Of a stretch of DNA of 34,506 bases, positions 1,822 through 30,436 are shown one piece after another. Both the position numbers and the translations under genes were made by a program. Position 1 is the stretch's first letter, and every line of letters begins with the position of its first letter. Source of the DNA: a virus; UHGV virus genome UHGV-0828925; one strand, given 5' to 3'. The notes beneath the pieces were generated by a model, which had not been told where the DNA came from, made no database searches, and saw only the letters and a program-made list of their open reading frames with translations.

Positions 1822-3298
1822 TAACCTGAGCGACGAAGAGCAAATCGAATTGCTCGAGCTACTCGAAGAAGAAGAGAACTACCGTAACACACACCTGCTA
1901 TATGAATTTACGCCATACAGCAAACAGCGTGAGTTCATCGACGCCGGGCATGACTATCCAGAGCGATGTTTTATGGCTGGTAACCAGCTTGGTAAGTCAT
2001 TTACTGGTGCTGCTGAAGTCGCGTTTCACCTTACCGGGCGTTATCCGGGCACAAAAGGCTATCCTGCTGATGGTAAATATGGCGGTGAGTGGAAAGGTAA
2101 GCGTTTCTATGAGCCTGTTGTCTTCTGGATTGGCGGCGAGACAAACGAGACGGTAACCAAAACGACTCAACGCATCCTGTGCGGTCGTATTGAAGAGAAT
2201 GATGAGCCGGGCTACGGTTCAATACCGAAAGAGGACATCATTAGCTGGAAGAAGTCTCCTTTCTTTCCGAACCTTGTTGATCATCTTCTGGTTAAGCATC
2301 ACACGGCTGATGGCGTTGAAGATGGCATTTCAATCTGCTACTTCAAGCCATACTCGCAAGGCCGTGCACGCTGGCAGGGTGACACAATCCACGGCGTGTG
2401 GTTTGACGAAGAACCACCATACAGCATTTATGGTGAAGGTCTTACCCGTACCAACAAATACGGGCAATTCTCAATTCTGACGTTTACCCCGCTGATGGGG
2501 ATGTCTGACGTTGTTACCAAGTTCCTGAAGAATCCCAGCAAGTCGCAGAAAGTGGTCAACATGACCATCTATGACGCTGAGCACTACACAGACGAACAGA
2601 AAGAGCAAATCATCGCATCCTATCCCGAGCATGAGAGAGAGGCGCGTGCTCGCGGTATTCCTACGATGGGTAGTGGTCGAATCTTCCAGATACCGGAAGA
2701 GACGATTAAGTGTCAGCCGTTCGAGTGTCCTGATCACTTCTACGTAATTGGCGGGATGGATTTCGGATGGGATCACCCACAGGCGCAGGTTCAGATTTGG
2801 TGGGATAAGGACGCAGACACAATCTACGTTTCACGCGTGTGGAAGGCGAAAGAAAAAACAGCCGTTCAGGCGTGGGGAGCCGTTAAATCATGGGCGCATA
2901 AAGTGCCAACCGCATGGCCTCATGACGGAAACCAGCACGAGAAGGGCGGCGGTGAGCAGCTCAAAGGGCAGTATGCAGATGCTGGTTTTATGATGTTACA
3001 GGAGCATGCGACATGGCCTGATGGCGGTAATGCTGTTGAGCCTGGCATCACTGAATTGCGCGACATGATGCTCGATGGTCGCTTCAAAGTATTCAACACC
3101 TGTGAGCCATTCTTTGAGGAGTTCCGCCTCTATCACCGTGATGAAAACGGGAAAATCGTCAAGCTTAACGACGACGTTCTCTCAGCCGTTCGCTATGCAT
3201 ACATGATGCGCCGCTTCGCAAAAATGATGCGCGACATCAAAAAACCAAAAGAGAAAAAGATACCAGCCCCAATCAGGCCCATCGCACGGAGAACTTAA
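1799..3298 (+). CDS. gp2: Terminase large subunit (P22 gp2-like)
   Basis: 499 aa, overlaps the end of gp3; length and position match P22 gp2; nuclease-domain-like acidic motifs in the C-terminal half. Confidence 0.92.
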
Positions 3299-5464
3299 AT
3301 GGCCGACGAAAACAGACTCAATTCCATTCTGTGTAAGTTTGACGCGGACTGGATGGCGAGCGATGAAGCCAGAACCGAGGCGACAAATGACCTGTATTTT
3401 AGCCGAGTGTCGCAATGGGATGACTGGCTATCAAACTACACGACCCTGCAATATCGCGGACAATTCGATGTTGTTCGCCCGGTGGTCAGGAAGCTGGTCG
3501 CAGAGATGCGCCGGAATCCTATCGACGTTCTCTTCCGACCAAAAGACGGAGCTAATCCTGATGCTGCCGATGTGCTGATGGGGATGTATCGTACTGATAT
3601 GCGCCATAACACGGCAAAAATTGCCGTTAACGTTGGCGTTCGTGAGCAGATAGAGTCCGGCGTTGGTGCATGGCGTCTGGTCACGCAGTACGAAGACAAC
3701 GATCCAACAAGCAACAATCAGGTAATTCGACGCCTGCCAATTCATGAAGCCTGCTCACACGTCATATGGGACGCCAACAGCAAGCAGATGGATAAGAGCG
3801 ATGCTAAGCACTGCACGGTGATTAACGCCTTGTCACGCAATGGCTGGAAAGAGTTCGCAGAGGATTACGGTATTGATCCGGACACCTTACCATCTTTCCA
3901 GAATCCGAACGATACATGGCTGTTTCCGTGGGTATCGAATGATGTCGTCTACGTCGCTGAGTATTACGAGGTCGAAGAGAAGAAAGAGAAAGTCTTCATC
4001 TACCGCGATCCGCTGACAGGTGAGCCGGTCAGCTATTACCAGCAGGATATTAAAGACGTTATCGACGACCTGGCTAATCGTGGATTCATTAAGGTAGCAG
4101 AGCGCAAGGTGAAGCGTCGGCGTGTGTATAAGTCGATCATCACCTGCACGCAGATACTGAAAGACCGCGAGAAGATAGCCGGAGAGCATATTCCAATCGT
4201 TCCAGTGTATGGAGAATGGTCATTCGCTGGTGACAAGGAGTGCTACGAAGGAGTGGTAAGGCTGACGAAAGACGGTCAACGCCTTCGTAACATGATCATG
4301 TCGTTCAACGCCGATATCGTTGCTCGTTCACCGAAGAAGAAACCTACCTTCTTCCCTGAGCAAATCGAAGGCTACGAATACATGTACGGTGGAAATGATG
4401 ACTATCCGTACTATCTGCAGAACAGGACCGATGAAAACGGTAACGACCTGCCGATTGGTCCAATCTCCTACATGGAAAACCCTGAAGTGCCGCAAGCCAA
4501 CGCTTACATGCTTGAGGCTGCCACCAACGCAGTGAAAGAGGTGGCTAGTCTTGGCGTGGATGCGCAGGCGGCAAACTCTCAGGTCGCTTTCGATACCGTC
4601 AATCAACTGAACATGCGGGCAGACCTTGAGACATACGTGTTTCAGGATAACCTGGCTACCGCAATGCGACGCGATGGCGAGATTTATGCCTCAATGGTCA
4701 ATGATATTTATGACGTTCCTCGTCATGTAACGCTGACACTTGAAGATGGAAGCGAGAAAGACGTTCAACTCTATGCGCAAGTTGTCGATTACCAGTCCGG
4801 CAATGTGGTCACACTCAACGACATTCGCGGTCGCTATGAGTGCTATACAGACGTCGGACCATCCTTCCAGAGTATGAAGGAACAGAACCGCGCAGAGATT
4901 CAGGAGTTGCTCACCAAGGTTCCGCAAGGTACTCCAGAGTTCCAGATGCTGATGCTGCAATACTTCACGCTGCTTGACGGTAAAGGCGTCGAGATGATGC
5001 GAGAGTACGCGAACAAGCAACTGGCGATGATGGGGCTGAAGAAACCAGAAACACCTGAAGAGATGGAGATGGTGCAACAGGCACAACAACAGCCGCAGCA
5101 GCCATCAGCAGAGCAAATTCAGGCGCAGGGCATCCTTCTGCAAGGTCAGGCTGAATTGCTCAAGGCAGAGAACCAACAGGCGCAGATTCAGGTTGAAGCT
5201 GCCAAGGTTGAAGCTCAAAACCAACTTAACGCCGCGAAGATTGCAGAAATCTTCAACAATATGGACCTCGACAAGCAGGCAGAACTGCGTGAGTACCTCA
5301 AGCTAGTAGGTCAATTCCAGCAACAGCGCAGCAAAGATGCTCGTGCTAACGCTGAGCTGCTTCTTAAAGATGCAGACCAGACTCATTCACAACGCATGGA
5401 TTTCGCGAATCTTATGCGTCAAGTTCAAATCCCCTCCGGCGGAGTAGCCGAGACACCTCAATAA
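3299..5464 (+). CDS. gp1: Portal protein (P22 gp1-like)
   Basis: 721 aa, directly after large terminase; Q/A-rich coiled-coil C-terminal barrel region ([10 protein letters not shown]...[20 protein letters not shown]) typical of the P22 portal. Confidence 0.92.
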
Positions 5465-26692: not shown

Positions 26693-26835
26693 ATCGCATT
26701 CAGATATTTGTTTTGATTTACTGACGGAAAAGAATTTCTCTTAAGTAATTCCTCTCTCGATGGCATTGGCTTTACGCGTTGGCGAATAATCATTTCTGCA
26801 GGAAGAATGCCGGGGTTGTATGCAAGTCCTCTCAT
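26671..26835 (-). CDS. Small hypothetical protein (54 aa)
   Basis: ATG with GAGGAA SD inside track ORF 26671..26988, immediately after the stop of the upstream gene. Confidence 0.35.
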
Positions 26836-26845
26836 GGTAAATTCC

Positions 26846-27142
26846 TCAGTCATTACTGATAGCGCCATAGCGTGAGCGGTAATTACGCAGGCGCGGGTCG
26901 ATATATTCAGGGAAGTGGGTATATGTGGCTTTACGGAATGGTCTGATTGATGTCTGGTAAATTCGCTCTCGTTCTTCTTTCTCTGCAAGCCATATACAGT
27001 GGCGAAATTCCTTTTCCTCTTTCGTTTCCTGTGGTAGCGACATTATCCGATCGTAGTTTTTTCTGAATTTATCTAGCACCTCCGATACGGATTTGCCGGA
27101 ACAGCGGCGCGGGTCATCCGCACCATACAAAGGCGCTGGCAT
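26846..27142 (-). CDS. Hypothetical protein (98 aa)
   Basis: ORF in the same leftward operon, charged/basic composition. Confidence 0.5.
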
Positions 27143-27158
27143 GTTTTTCTCCTGTTTA

Positions 27159-27707
27159 TTATTTAGCTAACTTTTTCCAGATCGCTGAAACGTATTTGGC
27201 TTGGTGGATGGCATCATCAAGCGCGTTGTGGCGAGTTCCTTTGAATGGCATATCTCGCTTAGGGTCGAATCCTATTACCTTTCCAAGCTCGACGATTGTT
27301 CTTACGTCGCGGTCATTCCACCACTGCCACGGAACTGGCTGCCCTGTCAGCGAATAACTGTTTCGGAGAATAACGCAGTCAAATGATGCTCCATTCCCCC
27401 AAACCTGAACGAATTTGTGGTTAGCGTTCTTTATGATGAATTCAGATAACCATGAAAGAGCCGTTGAAAGCTCCTGAGTGTTGCTGGTTAGCGATTTTCT
27501 GGCTTCTTCACTCTGTTCCAGCCACCATAAAATCGTTGAAGCGTCAGGACGCGCCCGATATCGCATTGATGACTCAAGCGAGATATTTACCGAGAACTCT
27601 TCTCCTGTTTCTCCGGTATTCGGTTCAAAGAATACCGCCCCAATAGAAATAACTGGCGCGTATGGCCCGTTGCCCATTGTTTCAAGGTCAACCATCAAGT
27701 GATTCAT
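27159..27707 (-). CDS. DEDDh-type 3'-5' exonuclease (DnaQ-like)
   Basis: 182 aa; N-terminal MVDLETMG (Exo I D-x-E), later GASFDCVIL and HNALDDAIHQAKY (Exo III H-x4-D) motifs. Confidence 0.75.
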   Translation of the reverse strand: MNHLMVDLETMGNGPYAPVISIGAVFFEPNTGETGEEFSVNISLESSMRYRARPDASTILWWLEQSEEARKSLTSNTQELSTALSWLSEFIIKNANHKFVQVWGNGASFDCVILRNSYSLTGQPVPWQWWNDRDVRTIVELGKVIGFDPKRDMPFKGTRHNALDDAIHQAKYVSAIWKKLAK

Positions 27708-27715
27708 GTAAGTCC

Positions 27716-28231
27716 TTAAATTGCGTGAATAGCGTGACGAGGGAAAGGGAGAGTTACTGGTGCAAAGGGGATATCGTCGTCAAAATCCATAGGTGGTTCG
27801 CTGTGATTTACCTGCTTCTGAGGCTGCTGTTTTTGTTGCTGACCGTTATTTCGCTGAGGTGAAGACTGTTCATTGCCTCCTTGCTTGCCACCAAGCATTT
27901 GCATGGTTCCACCAACGCCCACGATAACTTCGGTAGTGAACCGATCCTGTCCACTTTGATCCTGCCATTTTCTTGTCCGCAATTTGCCTTCAAGATAAAC
28001 CTCAGAGCCTTTTCGCAGATATTCGCTGGCAATTTCTGCCAGTTTCCCGCTCATTACCACGCGGTGCCACTCCGTCTGCTCCTTTTGCTCTCCAGTTTGC
28101 TTATCACGCCATTGTTCTGACGTAGCAACTGTAAGGTTTGCAAATGCCGTTCCTGATGGTGAATATCTGATTTCTGGATCATGCCCAAGGCGACCAATAA
28201 TGATCACCTTATTTACGCCTCTGCTTGCCAT
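27716..28231 (-). CDS. ssb: Single-stranded DNA-binding protein
   Basis: 171 aa; OB-fold N-terminal region ([34 protein letters not shown]), Gly/Gln-rich linker and acidic C-terminal tail DFDDDIPF. Confidence 0.9.
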
Positions 28232-28939
28232 TTATGCCGCCTGTTTTAGTTCGTTAACTCTGATGTTCATTACCTGAACGCATTTAGCCTGCGCCTCCTC
28301 GTTGCCAGCCATTAATTGCCAGTCACGCTGATAACGCTCGATGAGTTTTTCCTTGTCAGTTTCTGTCGATGCATAATCGCTGAAGTCTTTCAGGATTTGT
28401 TCGCAGTCAACCGATGGAGATTTCTGGTTGGTATTTTCTGGTGATGGTTGATTGCCAGATGCTGGCATTGCCCATCCCGGCAGCGATGGAGGGGACCAGT
28501 AAAATCCTGTTCCATCTTTCAGTTTTGCCCTGTGCCATCCCTGCTTTTTATCGAGAGATGTTTGTGCGAAACCTTCCTCAAGGTTATACAGATACCGACC
28601 GATTCCCCACTGAACGGCAGCGCGCTTCATTGCACCGGAACGACCACCTTTGACGGCTTCTACCTGCGTGTTTTCAGCAGCATCCCATTTGGTTACCCAT
28701 TCGGAATCAATCTTTATTGATATGCCGCATTCAACGCCGCCGTTGTTGGGAATATCGCGGTATTCATTGCGCCATCCTGCTTTGCCACAAACATCGTCCA
28801 GGCGTTTCATGATTGCCCGGTTCGTTACATAAGCCAGCACCATAGCCCACACTTTGCCATCGCGTGTTTTACCGCTTTGCTGTATTCGCCATTCGATATC
28901 TTCAGGGCTGAATGGCTCATCGAATTTATTCAAATCCAT
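28232..28939 (-). CDS. Single-strand annealing recombinase (Rad52/Sak-like core with Erf-like C-terminal region)
   Basis: 235 aa; ...AMKRAAVQWGIGRYLY motif as in Rad52-family annealing proteins; C-terminal DFSDYASTETDKEKLIERYQRDWQLMAGNEEAQAKCVQVMNIRVNELKQAA resembles the P22 Erf C-terminus as I recall it. Confidence 0.7.
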   Translation of the reverse strand: MDLNKFDEPFSPEDIEWRIQQSGKTRDGKVWAMVLAYVTNRAIMKRLDDVCGKAGWRNEYRDIPNNGGVECGISIKIDSEWVTKWDAAENTQVEAVKGGRSGAMKRAAVQWGIGRYLYNLEEGFAQTSLDKKQGWHRAKLKDGTGFYWSPPSLPGWAMPASGNQPSPENTNQKSPSVDCEQILKDFSDYASTETDKEKLIERYQRDWQLMAGNEEAQAKCVQVMNIRVNELKQAA

Positions 28940-29038
28940 AATTCACCTCAGAATGGACATGGCCCAAGGAAATAACGCTGATTTAATACTTCGACTCGGG
29001 ACAAATTAAGGCATACCCGCATTCCTTCGCGGTCACCA

Positions 29039-29197
29039 TTATGGCGATACCAGAGAGCTTTCTGCGTGTACATGCGTCTCTGTAACTTGCTCTCCTTCAC
29101 TGTGGTTGCAAGTGACATGAATATCTCCTTCGTTACCGATTAATTCTTTCATCTGACGAATGAATTCTTCGTCTGACCAGTTATCTGTAAAATTCAT
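29039..29197 (-). CDS. Small hypothetical protein (kil position)
   Basis: 52 aa from internal ATG of track ORF 29039..29227 (first codon TTG); ATG overlaps the cIII-like stop. Confidence 0.35.
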   Translation of the reverse strand: MNFTDNWSDEEFIRQMKELIGNEGDIHVTCNHSEGEQVTETHVHAESSLVSP

Positions 29198-29364
29198 GGA
29201 CGGCCTTGTTGTTTCAAAATATCCCAAAGCTTTTCGAGCAAACTTTTCATTCTTGGTTGTTTAAAGTCTGCTCCGGTTAAAATATTTTTTCGTGAATGCT
29301 GTACCGATAAAATCGGGTTGAAAGGGCGAACCGATGCCGCCCCTGCAATAGCGAACTGTTGCAT
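29194..29364 (-). CDS. cIII: CIII-like protein (protease inhibitor protecting CII)
   Basis: 56 aa hand-translated MQQFAIAGAASVRPFNPILSVQHSRKNILTGADFKQPRMKSLLEKLWDILKQQGRP; AAGGAG SD; central amphipathic region resembles lambda CIII. Below track threshold. Confidence 0.55.
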   Translation of the reverse strand: MQQFAIAGAASVRPFNPILSVQHSRKNILTGADFKQPRMKSLLEKLWDILKQQGRP

Positions 29365-29439: not shown

Positions 29440-29751
29440 TTAGGCGGCTGATGTTTCTTCTTTCAGGCTTTCGAGATATTTACGTGGGTCGTCGTAACAT
29501 TGGCATTCGCTGTACCAATCCACCCAGCGATCAGTAAGCCCCATCTCTGATAAATCTTCATCGGTAAGGCTCTCATCCCACATCTCAAGGCCGTTAGCAT
29601 TGCAGTAATCAGGCTTGATGTTGTTGTCATACTGAAAGGCGTCATAATCAGCCAGTGCGTCCATCAGGCGAACACCCTCTTCAACACTTGCCACTTCTAC
29701 AATGAACGGCTTCATAGGTACTTGCGGGATATGCCAGACACGTAATTTCAT
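29440..29751 (-). CDS. Hypothetical acidic protein
   Basis: About 103 aa from ATG with GGAGAA SD (track ORF 29440..29805 starts with TTG). Confidence 0.5.
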   Translation of the reverse strand: MKLRVWHIPQVPMKPFIVEVASVEEGVRLMDALADYDAFQYDNNIKPDYCNANGLEMWDESLTDEDLSEMGLTDRWVDWYSECQCYDDPRKYLESLKEETSAA

Positions 29752-29939
29752 ATTTTCTCCGTTAAAAAAATCGCCCTCACACTGGAGGGCAAAGAAGATT
29801 TCCAATAATCAGAACAAGTCGGCTCCTGTTTAGTTACGAGCGACATTGCTCCGTGTATTCACTCGTTGGAATGAATACACAGTGCTGTGTTTATTCTGTT
29901 GTTTATGCCAAAAATAAAGGCCGACTATGCGGCCATCAC

Positions 29940-30136: not shown

Positions 30137-30436
30137 TCAAATAAGTGGTTTGCTGCCTAATTTCATTTTCTGGCGACCAACACAAGTCACACCCATTTCA
30201 CTGCGTGGCTTGCTGTAGTAAATACGGTTCTGTTTACGCTCGACTTCTTCTGCCTTCTTGCAGCGAAGGCTTCCGAGTGATGCTGCTTTATCTGCTCTGA
30301 CGCAACCAGAGAGCTTTAGCGCAATTTTTCGCGCCAGTCGCTGCTCTTGCATTGCCTGTTCACGTTGAGTCTGTCTGCGTGCTCTGCGGCGATTTCTGGC
30401 GTTATCGTCAGCCAGATATGTAATGACTACTGTCAT
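30137..30436 (-). CDS. N: N-like transcription antiterminator
   Basis: 99 aa; arginine-rich motif NARNRRRARRQTQREQ near the N-terminus; C-terminus ...ERKQNRIYYSKPRSEMGVTCVGRQKMKLGSKPLI resembles lambda N (...RTWYSKPGERGITCSGRQKIKGKSIPLI); GGAGG SD. Confidence 0.8.
   Translation of the reverse strand: MTVVITYLADDNARNRRRARRQTQREQAMQEQRLARKIALKLSGCVRADKAASLGSLRCKKAEEVERKQNRIYYSKPRSEMGVTCVGRQKMKLGSKPLI

What the first reader, a model, noticed from the sequence alone, without database searches (positions are those of the whole stretch)
27159..28939. Recombination module: chimeric annealing protein plus SSB plus DnaQ-like exonuclease
The annealing protein combines a Rad52/Sak-like core (GIGRYLY motif) with a C-terminal region that I recall as Erf-like; both assignments are from memory of motifs. 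It is followed by a phage SSB and a DEDDh 3'-5' exonuclease rather than a lambda-type 5'-3' exonuclease. The architecture suggests domain shuffling among recombinase families.
Basis: partly seen in the sequence, partly recalled or inferred. Interest (0 to 1): 0.45.

Follow-up and report, generated by a model that had tools for sequence, protein, structure and literature searches.

The report
Known epsilon34-type phage recombination module
This is the recombination gene block of a P22-like phage, whose DNA-annealing protein joins a Rad52-type core to the small tail domain also found on P22 Erf; the description is correct, but this module and the domain swap were already published for phages epsilon34, Sf6 and L.

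Summary
Three tightly packed minus-strand genes lie at 27159-28939: a 235-aa annealing protein, a 171-aa SSB and a 182-aa DEDDh 3'-5' exonuclease.

The annealing protein is a two-part mosaic:
- Residues 4-136 match Pfam Rad52_Rad22 (E 5e-26), and the model resembles Mgm101/RAD52. There is no ERF Pfam match.
- A disordered linker follows.
- The last 56 residues form a three-helix bundle that is 73% identical to the C-terminus of P22 Erf. The P22 Erf N-terminus belongs to Pfam ERF and is only 13% identical to this one.

The same tail domain occurs on both ERF-type and Rad52-type cores, in three subtypes that cut across core type. This indicates repeated domain swaps.

None of this is new. The protein is 97% identical to Sf6 gp28 and 93% to epsilon34 gp36. 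The epsilon34 (2008) and phage L (2020) genome papers describe this "Erf domain swap". A 2025 survey of 325 lambdoid phages lists the Abc2 + DnaQ-like nuclease + SSB + annealing-protein module. The full module is in 140 of 5426 complete E. coli genomes.

The missing 5'-3' exonuclease is normal for P22-type modules, where Abc2 redirects host RecBCD. The roles of the tail domain and of the T4 DexA-like exonuclease are inferred, not tested.

The parts
28232..28939 (-). Single-strand annealing protein, 235 aa, Rad52-type core plus P22-Erf-type tail domain. It is the homologue of Sf6 gp28 and epsilon34 gp36.
   Evidence: ORF. Pfam Rad52_Rad22 E 5e-26. 97% identical to Sf6 gp28 and 93% to epsilon34 gp36. 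5563 database homologues, with PF04098 on all 120 listed.
28466..28939 (-). N-terminal annealing domain, about aa 1-158 (Rad52 beta-beta-beta-alpha core with GIGRYLY at aa 112-118, plus a small extra beta-sheet at aa 126-149).
   Evidence: AF2 pLDDT is mostly 80-95. Foldseek top PDB hits are yeast Mgm101 and human RAD52, probability 0.95-1.0, E 2e-3 to 8e-3.
28409..28465 (-). Flexible linker, about aa 159-177. The left mosaic boundary with P22 erf lies here.
   Evidence: pLDDT <50 for aa 162-175. DNA identity to P22 erf is 24% immediately upstream of the last 56 codons, which is random level.
28235..28408 (-). C-terminal three-helix-bundle domain, aa 178-235, shared with P22 Erf and other ERF-type and Rad52-type annealing proteins. 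Putative partner-docking adaptor.
   Evidence: AF2 of the domain alone gives pLDDT 92 and three helices. 73% aa and 77% nt identity to the P22 erf 3' end. The alignment includes ERF-core proteins.
27716..28231 (-). Bacterial-type SSB ('SSB-1' of the lambdoid Rec-module survey), 171 aa. Its start codon directly abuts the stop codon of the annealing gene.
   Evidence: PF00436 E 2e-38. TIGR00621 at 183.6 bits against a cut-off of 53.95.
27719..27763 (-). 15-aa extension ([15 protein letters not shown]) that follows the canonical SSB tip DFDDDIPF (tip at 27764-27787). In Sf6 and Bas106 this is where an HNH endonuclease gene is inserted.
27159..27707 (-). DEDDh (DnaQ-like) 3'-5' exonuclease, 182 aa, Pfam Rv2179c-like, homologue of T4 DexA.
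   Evidence: PF16473 E 5e-73. PDB 8kel/8ken (T4 DexA) E 3.5e-13. Catalytic D7 E9 D110 H160 D165. About 31% identity to T-even dexA genes.
26846..27142 (-). abc2, the P22-type anti-RecBCD gene and fourth member of the module.
   Evidence: PF11043 E 2.9e-61 and phrog_656.
28948..29118 (-). 56-aa ORF (phrog_1723, homologue of the small ORF upstream of the annealing gene in Sf6 and mEp235) in the position that arf occupies in P22. It is not an Arf homologue, and its membership of the module is uncertain.
   Evidence: phrog_1723, E 9e-36. No Phage_Arf Pfam hit. Same arrangement in Sf6 and mEp235.

Best explanation
The region is the homologous-recombination ('Rec') module of the early-left operon of a P22-like lambdoid phage or prophage of E. 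coli. It is of the epsilon34 type. In transcription order the genes are: annealing protein, SSB, DnaQ/DexA-like 3'-5' exonuclease, Abc2.

Proposed mechanism:
1. Abc2 binds RecC of host RecBCD and converts it into a Chi-independent resection machine that leaves 3' single-strand tails. No phage 5'-3' exonuclease is therefore needed. This is established for P22 Abc2 and inferred here from 2.9e-61 homology.
2. The phage SSB coats the single strands (inferred from family membership).
3. The annealing protein uses its Rad52-type N-terminal domain to bind single strands and pair complementary ones (inferred from fold and family).
4. Its small three-helix C-terminal domain sits on a flexible linker and serves as a docking adaptor that brings the annealing core to its partner. 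[quoted passage not shown] This step is the least certain, with a probability of about 0.5.
5. The 3'-5' exonuclease most likely trims non-homologous 3' flaps or ends of annealed intermediates, as T4 DexA does in intron homing. This is also inferred.

The annealing gene is a mosaic. The tail-domain coding segment has been exchanged horizontally between genes with ERF-type and Rad52-type cores.
For: The genes are tightly packed: the SSB ATG abuts the annealing gene's stop, and the next two gaps are 8 and 16 nt. No promoter-like or terminator-like site lies inside 26700-28940.

Fold evidence: Rad52-type N-terminal domain, linker and three-helix C-terminal domain.

Mosaicism:
- Homology to P22 erf covers only the last ~170 nt (77% identity over the last 56 codons against 24% just upstream) and ends at the stop codon.
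- Six ERF-core proteins carry the same domain.
- Three tail-domain subtypes each occur on both core types.
- P22 Erf and Oslo Erf are nearly identical for aa 1-157 and then drop sharply, to roughly a third identical.

The identical module is present in epsilon34, g341c, mEp235, mEpX2 and Bas106. It is also in 140 of 5426 complete E. coli genomes.

Literature:
- PMC2629481 and PMC8022706 describe the domain swap.
- PMC12315714 lists the module and judges the epsilon34 DnaQ nuclease a likely Rec-module member.
- PMC5928155 summarises the Abc2 mechanism and shows that an SSB tail stimulates a phage annealase.
- PMC11611040 describes the Red-beta C-terminal domain binding both lambda Exo and the SSB tail.
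- PMC12153337 covers DexA in intron homing.

Seven of the top 23 viral-structure matches to the tail domain are annealing proteins of several families (ERF, Sak3, RecT), although no single match is significant.
Against: No biochemical or genetic data exist for this protein set; PMC12315714 says these proteins have not been studied experimentally.

The canonical tip of the phage SSB is not at the C-terminus in this allele, which argues against classical tail binding to the phage SSB itself.

The exonuclease is absent from most relatives that carry the same annealing-protein and SSB pair: only 12 of 93 phage records and 140 of 439 E. coli genomes have it. Elsewhere it occurs in unrelated contexts. 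In E. coli, 3'-5' exonucleases usually inhibit recombination (PMC12315714).
Confidence: 0.85

Rival explanations
1. The DEDDh exonuclease is not a recombination component. It is an independently mobile gene that happens to sit here and works in nucleotide scavenging or in attacking the DNA of competing phages, like the DexA-family 'HREX' exonuclease EcD that protects E. coli from T4.
For: The closest solved relative is T4 DexA. PMC12153337 shows that a short E. coli DexA homologue degrades 5hmC DNA and blocks T4. Like that class, the window protein lacks the DexA D90 tetramer residue and keeps the Trp equivalent to DexA W152 (W130 here), by my reading of the alignment.

The gene is optional next to this annealing-protein and SSB pair. 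Its homologues sit beside a DNA polymerase, beside an integrase, or as the C-terminal domain of an 823-aa protein.
Against: The gene is packed 8 nt after the SSB gene and 16 nt before abc2, with no promoter of its own. It would therefore be expressed only with the early-left operon during lytic growth, not from a resting prophage. The authors of the lambdoid survey regard the epsilon34 copy as a legitimate Rec-module member. EcD is a different protein: its cloning primers encode MIDTET.... The DexA D169 equivalent is Phe here, with Asp one position later.
Confidence: 0.3
2. The tail domain does not dock onto SSB. It docks onto another partner common to these phages, for example Abc2-modified RecBCD, so that the annealing protein is loaded as the strand is produced. 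Alternatively it regulates ring assembly.
For: Every subtype A or B example examined in a P22-like or lambdoid context carries abc2. The Red-beta C-terminal domain binds its resection nuclease as well as SSB. Subtype A occurs with abc1 and no phage SSB in P22 and L and with SSB here, so it does not track a phage SSB. The window SSB tip is masked.
Against: No abc2 was detected in the downstream genes I scanned in the Klebsiella and Erwinia phages that carry subtype C on ERF cores. Several ERF proteins with this tail are followed by SSB-like genes ending in a canonical terminal ...IPF. All hosts share the same SSB tail, so host SSB remains the simplest common partner.
Confidence: 0.3
3. There is no chimerism: the protein is a uniform member of a single family (all ERF or all Rad52), and the similarity to P22 Erf is ordinary family resemblance.
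For: PHROG 1097 matches the full length and is labelled 'Erf-like'. ERF and Rad52 cores are thought to share a distant common fold (PMC2896510, PMC9870868).
Against: The N-terminal parts are 13% identical and belong to different Pfam families, while the last 56 aa are 73% identical. DNA identity jumps from 24% to 77% at the linker. Tail-domain subtypes are incongruent with core type. P22 Erf and Oslo Erf, with nearly identical cores, differ in the tail.
Confidence: 0.02

Closest known systems
Salmonella phage epsilon34 genes 33-36 (Abc2, DnaQ-like nuclease gp34, SSB gp35, 'Erf' gp36); also g341c, mEp235, mEpX2 and CurroJimenez_Bas106
   Same: Same four genes in the same order and spacing. DNA identity over 27159-28939 is 85.5% to epsilon34, 90.6% to mEp235 and 97.7% to Bas106. 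The annealing protein is 93% identical to gp36. The SSB tail extension is the same.
   Different: Only allelic differences. Bas106 has an extra HNH endonuclease gene between the SSB and exonuclease genes.
Shigella phage Sf6 genes 25-28
   Same: The annealing protein is 97% identical and the SSB 96% identical. abc2 is present.
   Different: Sf6 lacks the DEDDh exonuclease. It has an HNH endonuclease gene inserted at the 3' end of the SSB gene, so its SSB ends at ...DSDIPF.
Phage P22 recombination module (arf, erf, abc1, abc2)
   Same: Same operon position, homologous abc2, and a homologous C-terminal domain on the annealing protein (73% over 56 aa). Both depend on host RecBCD instead of a phage 5'-3' exonuclease.
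   Different: The P22 annealing core is Pfam ERF, not Rad52. P22 has abc1 and arf and has no SSB or DEDDh exonuclease.
Lactococcal phage ul36 Sak / eukaryotic Rad52 and Mgm101 (Rad52-type annealing proteins)
   Same: The N-terminal domain matches Pfam Rad52_Rad22, and its model matches the Mgm101 and RAD52 structures.
   Different: About 15% identity to the solved structures. The C-terminal domain is unrelated to the Rad52 or Sak C-terminal regions and comes from the enterobacterial Erf/Rad52 tail pool.
Lambda Red (Exo, Beta, Gam)
   Same: Functional analogy: an annealing core plus a small helical C-terminal adaptor on a linker, and an anti-RecBCD function in the same operon position.
   Different: There is no 5'-3' exonuclease here. 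Beta is RecT/Red-beta type. The tail domain has no detectable sequence similarity to the Beta C-terminal domain. Gam blocks RecBCD, whereas Abc2 redirects it.
T4 DexA (exonuclease A) and the E. coli HREX exonuclease EcD
   Same: Same DEDDh family, with E 3.5e-13 to the DexA structure and about 31% identity. Catalytic residues are conserved.
   Different: The window protein is shorter (182 aa against 227 aa) and lacks the DexA loops and the D90 tetramer residue. Its substrate preference is unknown. It is not the EcD protein.

Membership tests
Rad52/Rad22 (Sak-type) single-strand annealing proteins, Pfam PF04098 | Profile match above the curated threshold over the annealing domain | tested here: met
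   91.9 bits against a cut-off of 20.3, E 5e-26, aa 4-136. PF04098 is precomputed on all 120 homologues listed.
Rad52/Rad22 (Sak-type) single-strand annealing proteins, Pfam PF04098 | Beta-beta-beta-alpha core fold like the RAD52 N-terminal domain | tested here: met
   AF2 model with pLDDT 82.6. The top 17 Foldseek PDB hits are all Mgm101 or RAD52, probability 0.75-1.0, but with modest TM-scores of 0.21-0.45.
Rad52/Rad22 (Sak-type) single-strand annealing proteins, Pfam PF04098 | Oligomeric ring, ssDNA binding and strand-annealing activity | not testable with these tools
   Needs purified protein (EM, gel shift, annealing assay).
ERF family (P22 Erf), Pfam PF04404 | Profile match to the ERF annealing domain | tested here: not met
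   No ERF hit at E<=1 for the window protein. P22 Erf scores 157 bits with the same search. The N-terminal parts are 13% identical. The 'Erf-like' label of PHROG 1097 and RefSeq rests on the tail domain only.
ERF family (P22 Erf), Pfam PF04404 | C-terminal small domain of P22 Erf (second domain of the two-domain protein of Poteete et al. 1983, as cited in PMC2629481) | tested here: met
   63% identity over 71 aa, E 2e-29. 41/56 identical over the last 56 aa.
Bacterial-type SSB, PF00436 / TIGR00621 | OB-fold ssDNA-binding domain profile match | tested here: met
   PF00436 at 131 bits against 26. TIGR00621 at 183.6 bits against 53.95.
Bacterial-type SSB, PF00436 / TIGR00621 | Acidic tip ...DDDIPF at the extreme C-terminus, with the free carboxylate of the last Phe used for partner binding (established knowledge of E. 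coli SSB) | tested here: not met
   DFDDDIPF is at aa 149-156 and is followed by 15 more residues. The Sf6 and Bas106 alleles end at ...DSDIPF.
DEDDh (DnaQ-like) 3'-5' exonucleases, PF16473 / T4 DexA | Profile match plus all five catalytic residues (D, E, D, H, D) | tested here: met
   PF16473 at 245 bits against 27. D7, E9, D110, H160 and D165 are present. T4 DexA structure E 3.5e-13.
DEDDh (DnaQ-like) 3'-5' exonucleases, PF16473 / T4 DexA | 3'-5' polarity and DNA versus RNA substrate | not testable with these tools
   The Pfam name says exoribonuclease, while DexA is a DNase. An enzyme assay is needed.
Lambda Red / RecET two-component recombinase (5'-3' exonuclease plus annealase) | Adjacent lambda Exo/YqaJ-type or RecE-type 5'-3' exonuclease | tested here: not met
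   None of the eight early-left ORFs scanned between 25557 and 30436 matches such a nuclease.
P22-type Abc2-dependent Rec module (epsilon34 subtype of PMC12315714) | abc2 contiguous with the annealing-protein gene in the early-left operon, with optional SSB-1 and DnaQ-type nuclease | tested here: met
   abc2 PF11043 E 2.9e-61 at 26846-27142, 16 nt downstream of the exonuclease gene. Same arrangement as epsilon34 genes 33-36. Described.

The most novel reading that the evidence does not exclude
The roughly 57-aa three-helix tail may be a freely exchangeable specificity adaptor that decides which partner the annealing core is delivered to. Its three subtypes move between ERF and Rad52 cores, and even recombine inside helix 1, as seen in P22 Erf against HK022/Oslo-type Erf.

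In this allele the phage SSB hides its canonical tip behind 15 extra residues. That would keep host SSB-tail clients such as ExoI, RecQ and RecO off phage recombination intermediates and leave them to the phage annealing protein and the DexA-like exonuclease.

The 2025 lambdoid survey explicitly left the shuffling of partner-interaction domains unanalysed.
Probability: 0.2. Interest if true: 0.45.

Novelty: already known. Interest (0 to 1): 0.15.

Why it matters
For discovery it matters little. The module is common (140 of 5426 complete E. coli genomes), RefSeq annotates it correctly, and the genome papers for epsilon34, Sf6, ES18 and L and a 2025 survey all describe it.

It has some practical value:
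- The 'Erf-like ssDNA annealing protein' label that PHROGs and RefSeq phage records give this protein is misleading, because the annealing core is Rad52-type.
- The natural swaps between Rad52 and ERF cores show that the tail domain is a portable unit. That is relevant to engineering host-portable recombineering proteins, where the contact between the annealing protein's C-terminus and SSB is the known bottleneck.
- The partner of the tail domain and the role of a 3'-5' exonuclease in a single-strand-annealing pathway are still untested experimentally.

Tried and rejected
1. Word-indexed protein search with the 75-aa tail domain returned only 14 fragments and gave no information on domain architecture.

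2. The exhaustive representative search with the same query gave only 15 hits, because clusters are represented by one member. One hit, P0137, is a 1674-aa eukaryotic Ig-repeat protein with 12 weak stretches; I rejected it as a repeat artefact. The remaining hits did show ERF-type fragments carrying the tail.

4. hhalign of the tail-domain alignment against the lambda Beta C-terminal domain gave probability 0.8%, so there is no sequence-level link. The analogy to Beta is functional only.

5. phmmer of the annealing protein against PDB sequences gave nothing significant. The weak WW-domain hit at aa 129-160 (E 0.29) was not pursued.

6. I tested whether the window exonuclease is the published anti-T4 EcD protein. 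The EcD primers encode MIDTET... and ...TIPETY, so it is not.

7. NCBIfam has no model for the annealing protein or the exonuclease.

8. The ES18 genome paper (PMC545730) is not held in the library, and the 2002 Iyer-Koonin-Aravind classification paper was not found by search. The earliest statements of the domain swap are therefore cited second-hand through PMC2629481.

9. I looked for co-variation between tail subtype and the downstream gene (abc1, SSB-1, SSB-1b, others) and found no clean pattern.
Full report
**What is there.** Three ORFs occupy exactly 27159-28939 on the minus strand. They are a 235-aa protein (28232-28939), a 171-aa protein (27716-28231) and a 182-aa protein (27159-27707).

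The genes are tightly packed. The SSB ATG directly follows the stop codon of the annealing gene, the exonuclease gene starts 8 nt after the SSB stop, and abc2 starts 16 nt after the exonuclease stop. A consensus scan finds no promoter-like or terminator-like site between 26700 and 28940.

The surroundings are the early-left operon of a P22-like lambdoid phage:
- an N-like antiterminator (30137-30436);
- a gp17 superinfection-exclusion homologue (29440-29805);
- cIII (29194-29364);
- two small overlapping ORFs;
- the three genes of the finding;
- abc2 (26846-27142, PF11043, E 2.9e-61);
- Ead/Ea22-family genes.

The rest of the window encodes P22-like virion, tailspike, integrase and immunity genes. 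It is a mosaic that no single deposited phage covers by more than 38%.

**The annealing protein is a real chimera.** Pfam assigns aa 4-136 to Rad52_Rad22 (91.9 bits, E 5e-26) and gives no ERF hit. GIGRYLY is at aa 112-118.

An AlphaFold2 model built on 39 homologues has mean pLDDT 82.6. It shows:
- a confident N-terminal domain to about aa 158;
- a disordered linker (aa 162-175, pLDDT <50);
- a confident three-helix bundle (aa 179-234).

Modelled alone, the bundle reaches pLDDT 92. The top 17 Foldseek PDB matches of the full model are all yeast Mgm101 or human RAD52.

P22 Erf, taken from AF217253, matches Pfam ERF over aa 5-146. BLASTP between the two proteins aligns only the ends: window aa 166-235 against Erf aa 135-205, 63% identity, E 2e-29. 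The last 56 residues are 41/56 identical, whereas the N-terminal parts are 13% identical in a global alignment. At the DNA level the last 56 codons are 77% identical and the preceding 168 nt are 24% identical, which is random level. Similarity stops at the stop codon, because SSB follows here and abc1 follows in P22.

**How general the tail domain is.** A tblastn with the C-terminal 99 aa finds it in 129 phage records. Six of the proteins I checked have ERF-type cores by Pfam:
- P22 Erf;
- Salmonella phage Oslo, described as similar to HK022 Erf;
- Sf101;
- Klebsiella phage RCIP0034;
- Erwinia phage vB_EhrS_49;
- Morganella phage IME1369_01.

All of them align with the window tail through a shared pattern, (D/E)x(I/V)LxxF(S/T)x(Y/A)A...L...Y...W..L.G...Q.K(C/A)..(V/I)..IR..EL.

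A pairwise identity matrix separates three tail subtypes, and each one is found on both core types:

| Subtype | Rad52-core example | ERF-core example | Identity |
|---|---|---|---|
| A (CVQVMNIR) | window protein | P22 Erf | 71% |
| B (AKDIYNIR) | one member of alignment A2 | Oslo, Sf101 | 51-53% |
| C (CKDVTGIR) | P0139 | Klebsiella and Erwinia phages | 57-62% |

P22 Erf and Oslo Erf are nearly identical through aa 157, which includes the linker and the first half of helix 1 (EQVLKAF). After that point only roughly a third of residues are identical. A breakpoint therefore lies inside the tail domain, and P22 Erf may itself be a recombinant. Which allele is the recombinant is not determined.

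**What the tail domain does is not established.**
- hhalign against the lambda Beta C-terminal domain is negative (probability 0.8%).
- Foldseek against viral models gives no significant single hit (best E 0.73). However, 7 of the top 23 matches are C-terminal parts of annealing proteins from several families: ERF, Sak3, RecT and proteins labelled 'recombinase'.

That enrichment is suggestive. It fits the published picture that phage annealases carry small C-terminal adaptor domains, and that the Beta one binds lambda Exo and the SSB tail (PMC11611040). In HK620, the last six residues of the phage SSB are needed to stimulate Sak4 (PMC5928155). By analogy, I take SSB-tail docking as the most likely role, with a probability of about 0.5. 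Docking to Abc2-modified RecBCD is the main alternative.

Tail subtype does not track the downstream gene. Subtype A sits next to abc1 in P22 and L and next to SSB here. Subtype B sits next to an HK97 gp40-like SSB (phrog_44, E 2e-27) that ends in ...DDSIPF.

**SSB and exonuclease.** The SSB is a robust bacterial-type SSB (PF00436, E 2e-38; TIGR00621 at 183.6 bits).

The exonuclease is a full-length PF16473 (Rv2179c-like) DEDDh enzyme (E 5e-73) with D7, E9, D110, H160 and D165. Its only solved relatives are 8kel and 8ken (E 3.5e-13), which are T4 DexA. It is about 31% identical to T-even dexA genes, and the family is present in 1224 phage records.

DexA is a 3'-5' DNA exonuclease that acts in host-DNA scavenging and in intron homing. 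A short E. coli homologue, EcD, degrades 5hmC DNA and protects against T4 (PMC12153337). EcD is a different protein from the window one.

The exonuclease gene is optional. Only 12 of 93 phage records and 140 of 439 E. coli genomes that match the module include it. Its homologues also lie next to a DNA polymerase (Vibrio phage CP-T1), next to an integrase (phage Eeyore), or as the C-terminal domain of an 823-aa protein (PhiR42_1). Its role in recombination therefore rests on adjacency and tight packing alone. I favour 3'-flap or 3'-end trimming of annealed intermediates and keep a defence or scavenging role as a rival at 0.3.

**Why there is no 5'-3' exonuclease.** P22-type modules do not encode one. 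Abc2 binds RecC and turns RecBCD into the resection activity (summarised in PMC5928155, and PMC12315714). abc2 is contiguous with the module here.

**Comparison with what is known.** The annealing protein is 97% identical to Sf6 gp28 and 93% identical to epsilon34 gp36. The three-gene DNA is 97.7% identical to phage CurroJimenez_Bas106, 90.6% to mEp235 and 85.5% to epsilon34 and g341c.

[quoted passage not shown] It calls the nuclease 'unusual in this context'. [quoted passage not shown] I reproduce the 86% figure (48/56).
- The phage L paper says the same and quotes 13% identity for the N-terminal parts (PMC8022706).
- The 2025 survey of 325 lambdoid phages lists SSB-1, DnaQ-like 3'-5' nucleases, HNH nucleases, annealing-protein types and Abc2 as Rec-module components. 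It cites epsilon34's DnaQ gene as a likely legitimate member. It notes that 'shuffling of partner interaction domains' was beyond its scope (PMC12315714).
- RefSeq annotates the E. coli prophage copies as 'Rad52/Rad22 family DNA repair protein', 'ssb' and '3'-5' exonuclease'.

**Verdict.** Novelty: already known. Interest: 0.15.

What remains open is experimental: the partner of the tail domain, the purpose of the 3'-5' exonuclease, and the consequence of the SSB tail extension described under the side observations.

Noticed in passing
window 27719-27787 (-); compare L005 (Sf6) 1470-2040 and L003 (Bas106) 3527-4097: The SSB's canonical tip DFDDDIPF (aa 149-156) is followed by 15 more residues, [15 protein letters not shown]. 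The same extension occurs in mEp235 and epsilon34.

In Sf6 and Bas106 an HNH endonuclease cassette is inserted in the SSB tail-coding region. It supplies its own recoded tail (...NFDDSDIPF plus stop), and the endonuclease ORF then reads into the old tail (…[14 protein letters not shown]). This looks like a free-standing homing endonuclease that repairs the gene it splits.

The extension should block classical binding of the SSB tail, which needs the free carboxylate of the last Phe. Neither the consequence nor whether the endonuclease-free allele is the cleavage target is known.
   Followed up: partly
L002 (P22) 2599-3216 vs L010 (Oslo) 1599-2216: P22 Erf and the HK022/Oslo-type Erf are nearly identical for aa 1-157. 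They then fall to roughly a third identical for the rest of the C-terminal domain and for the downstream gene (abc1 in P22, an SSB-like gp40 homologue in Oslo). A mosaic joint therefore lies inside helix 1 of the tail domain, after EQVLKAF. The P22 tail groups with the Rad52-type Salmonella phage proteins, not with other Erf proteins.
   Followed up: partly
window 28232-28939 (-): PHROG 1097 and RefSeq phage records label this protein 'Erf-like ssDNA annealing protein', although it has no ERF domain. The label seems to derive from the shared tail. PGAP names the bacterial copies correctly as Rad52/Rad22 family.
   Followed up: yes
window 28948-29118 (-) and 29039-29227 (-): Two small ORFs that overlap by 80 nt in different frames both match PHROG families labelled 'recombinase' (phrog_1723, E 9e-36; phrog_2123, E 8e-41). 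The same overlapping pair is annotated in Sf6 (gp29, gp30) and mEp235. They sit where arf sits in P22 but are not Arf homologues. Their function is unknown, and whether both are real genes is unclear.
   Followed up: partly
L009 (Sf101) 2195-2578; L010 (Oslo) 2216-2599: The 127-aa HK97 gp40-like protein downstream of the ERF-type annealing genes has no Pfam hit. It matches the SSB PHROG (phrog_44, E 2e-27) and ends in a canonical ...EYDDSIPF tip. This agrees with the 'SSB-1b' assignment that the 2025 survey made from predicted structure.
   Followed up: partly
L013 (Escherichia phage PhiR42_1) 584-3055: An 823-aa protein annotated 'exodeoxyribonuclease VIII' carries, as its C-terminal domain, a DEDDh module 58% identical to the window exonuclease (compare phrog_2082). 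The RecE-type name looks like a misannotation for a 3'-5' exonuclease fusion.
   Followed up: no
window 27159-27707 (-), aa 81-83, 130, 147-148: Read against the T4 DexA alignment, the exonuclease lacks the D90 residue said to be needed for the DexA tetramer. It keeps the Trp equivalent to DexA W152 (W130). It has Phe-Asp where DexA has D169-M170. This resembles the short bacterial 'dimer-type' homologues proposed to target modified phage DNA.
   Followed up: partly
window 28493-28555 (-), aa 129-149 of the annealing protein: The N-terminal domain ends with a small extra three-stranded sheet (aa 126-149; W148, P151 and W156 are invariant). It gives a weak WW-domain-like hit to Prp40 (E 0.29). 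It is probably a family-specific decoration of the Rad52 core.
   Followed up: no
window 1-34506: The window is a nearly complete P22-like (Lederbergvirus-like) genome: terminase, portal, coat, ejection proteins, tailspike, a low-GC region at 15-22 kb, integrase, the early-left operon and the immunity region. It is highly mosaic; the best single phage match (JEP4) covers only 38% of 10000-34506.
   Followed up: partly
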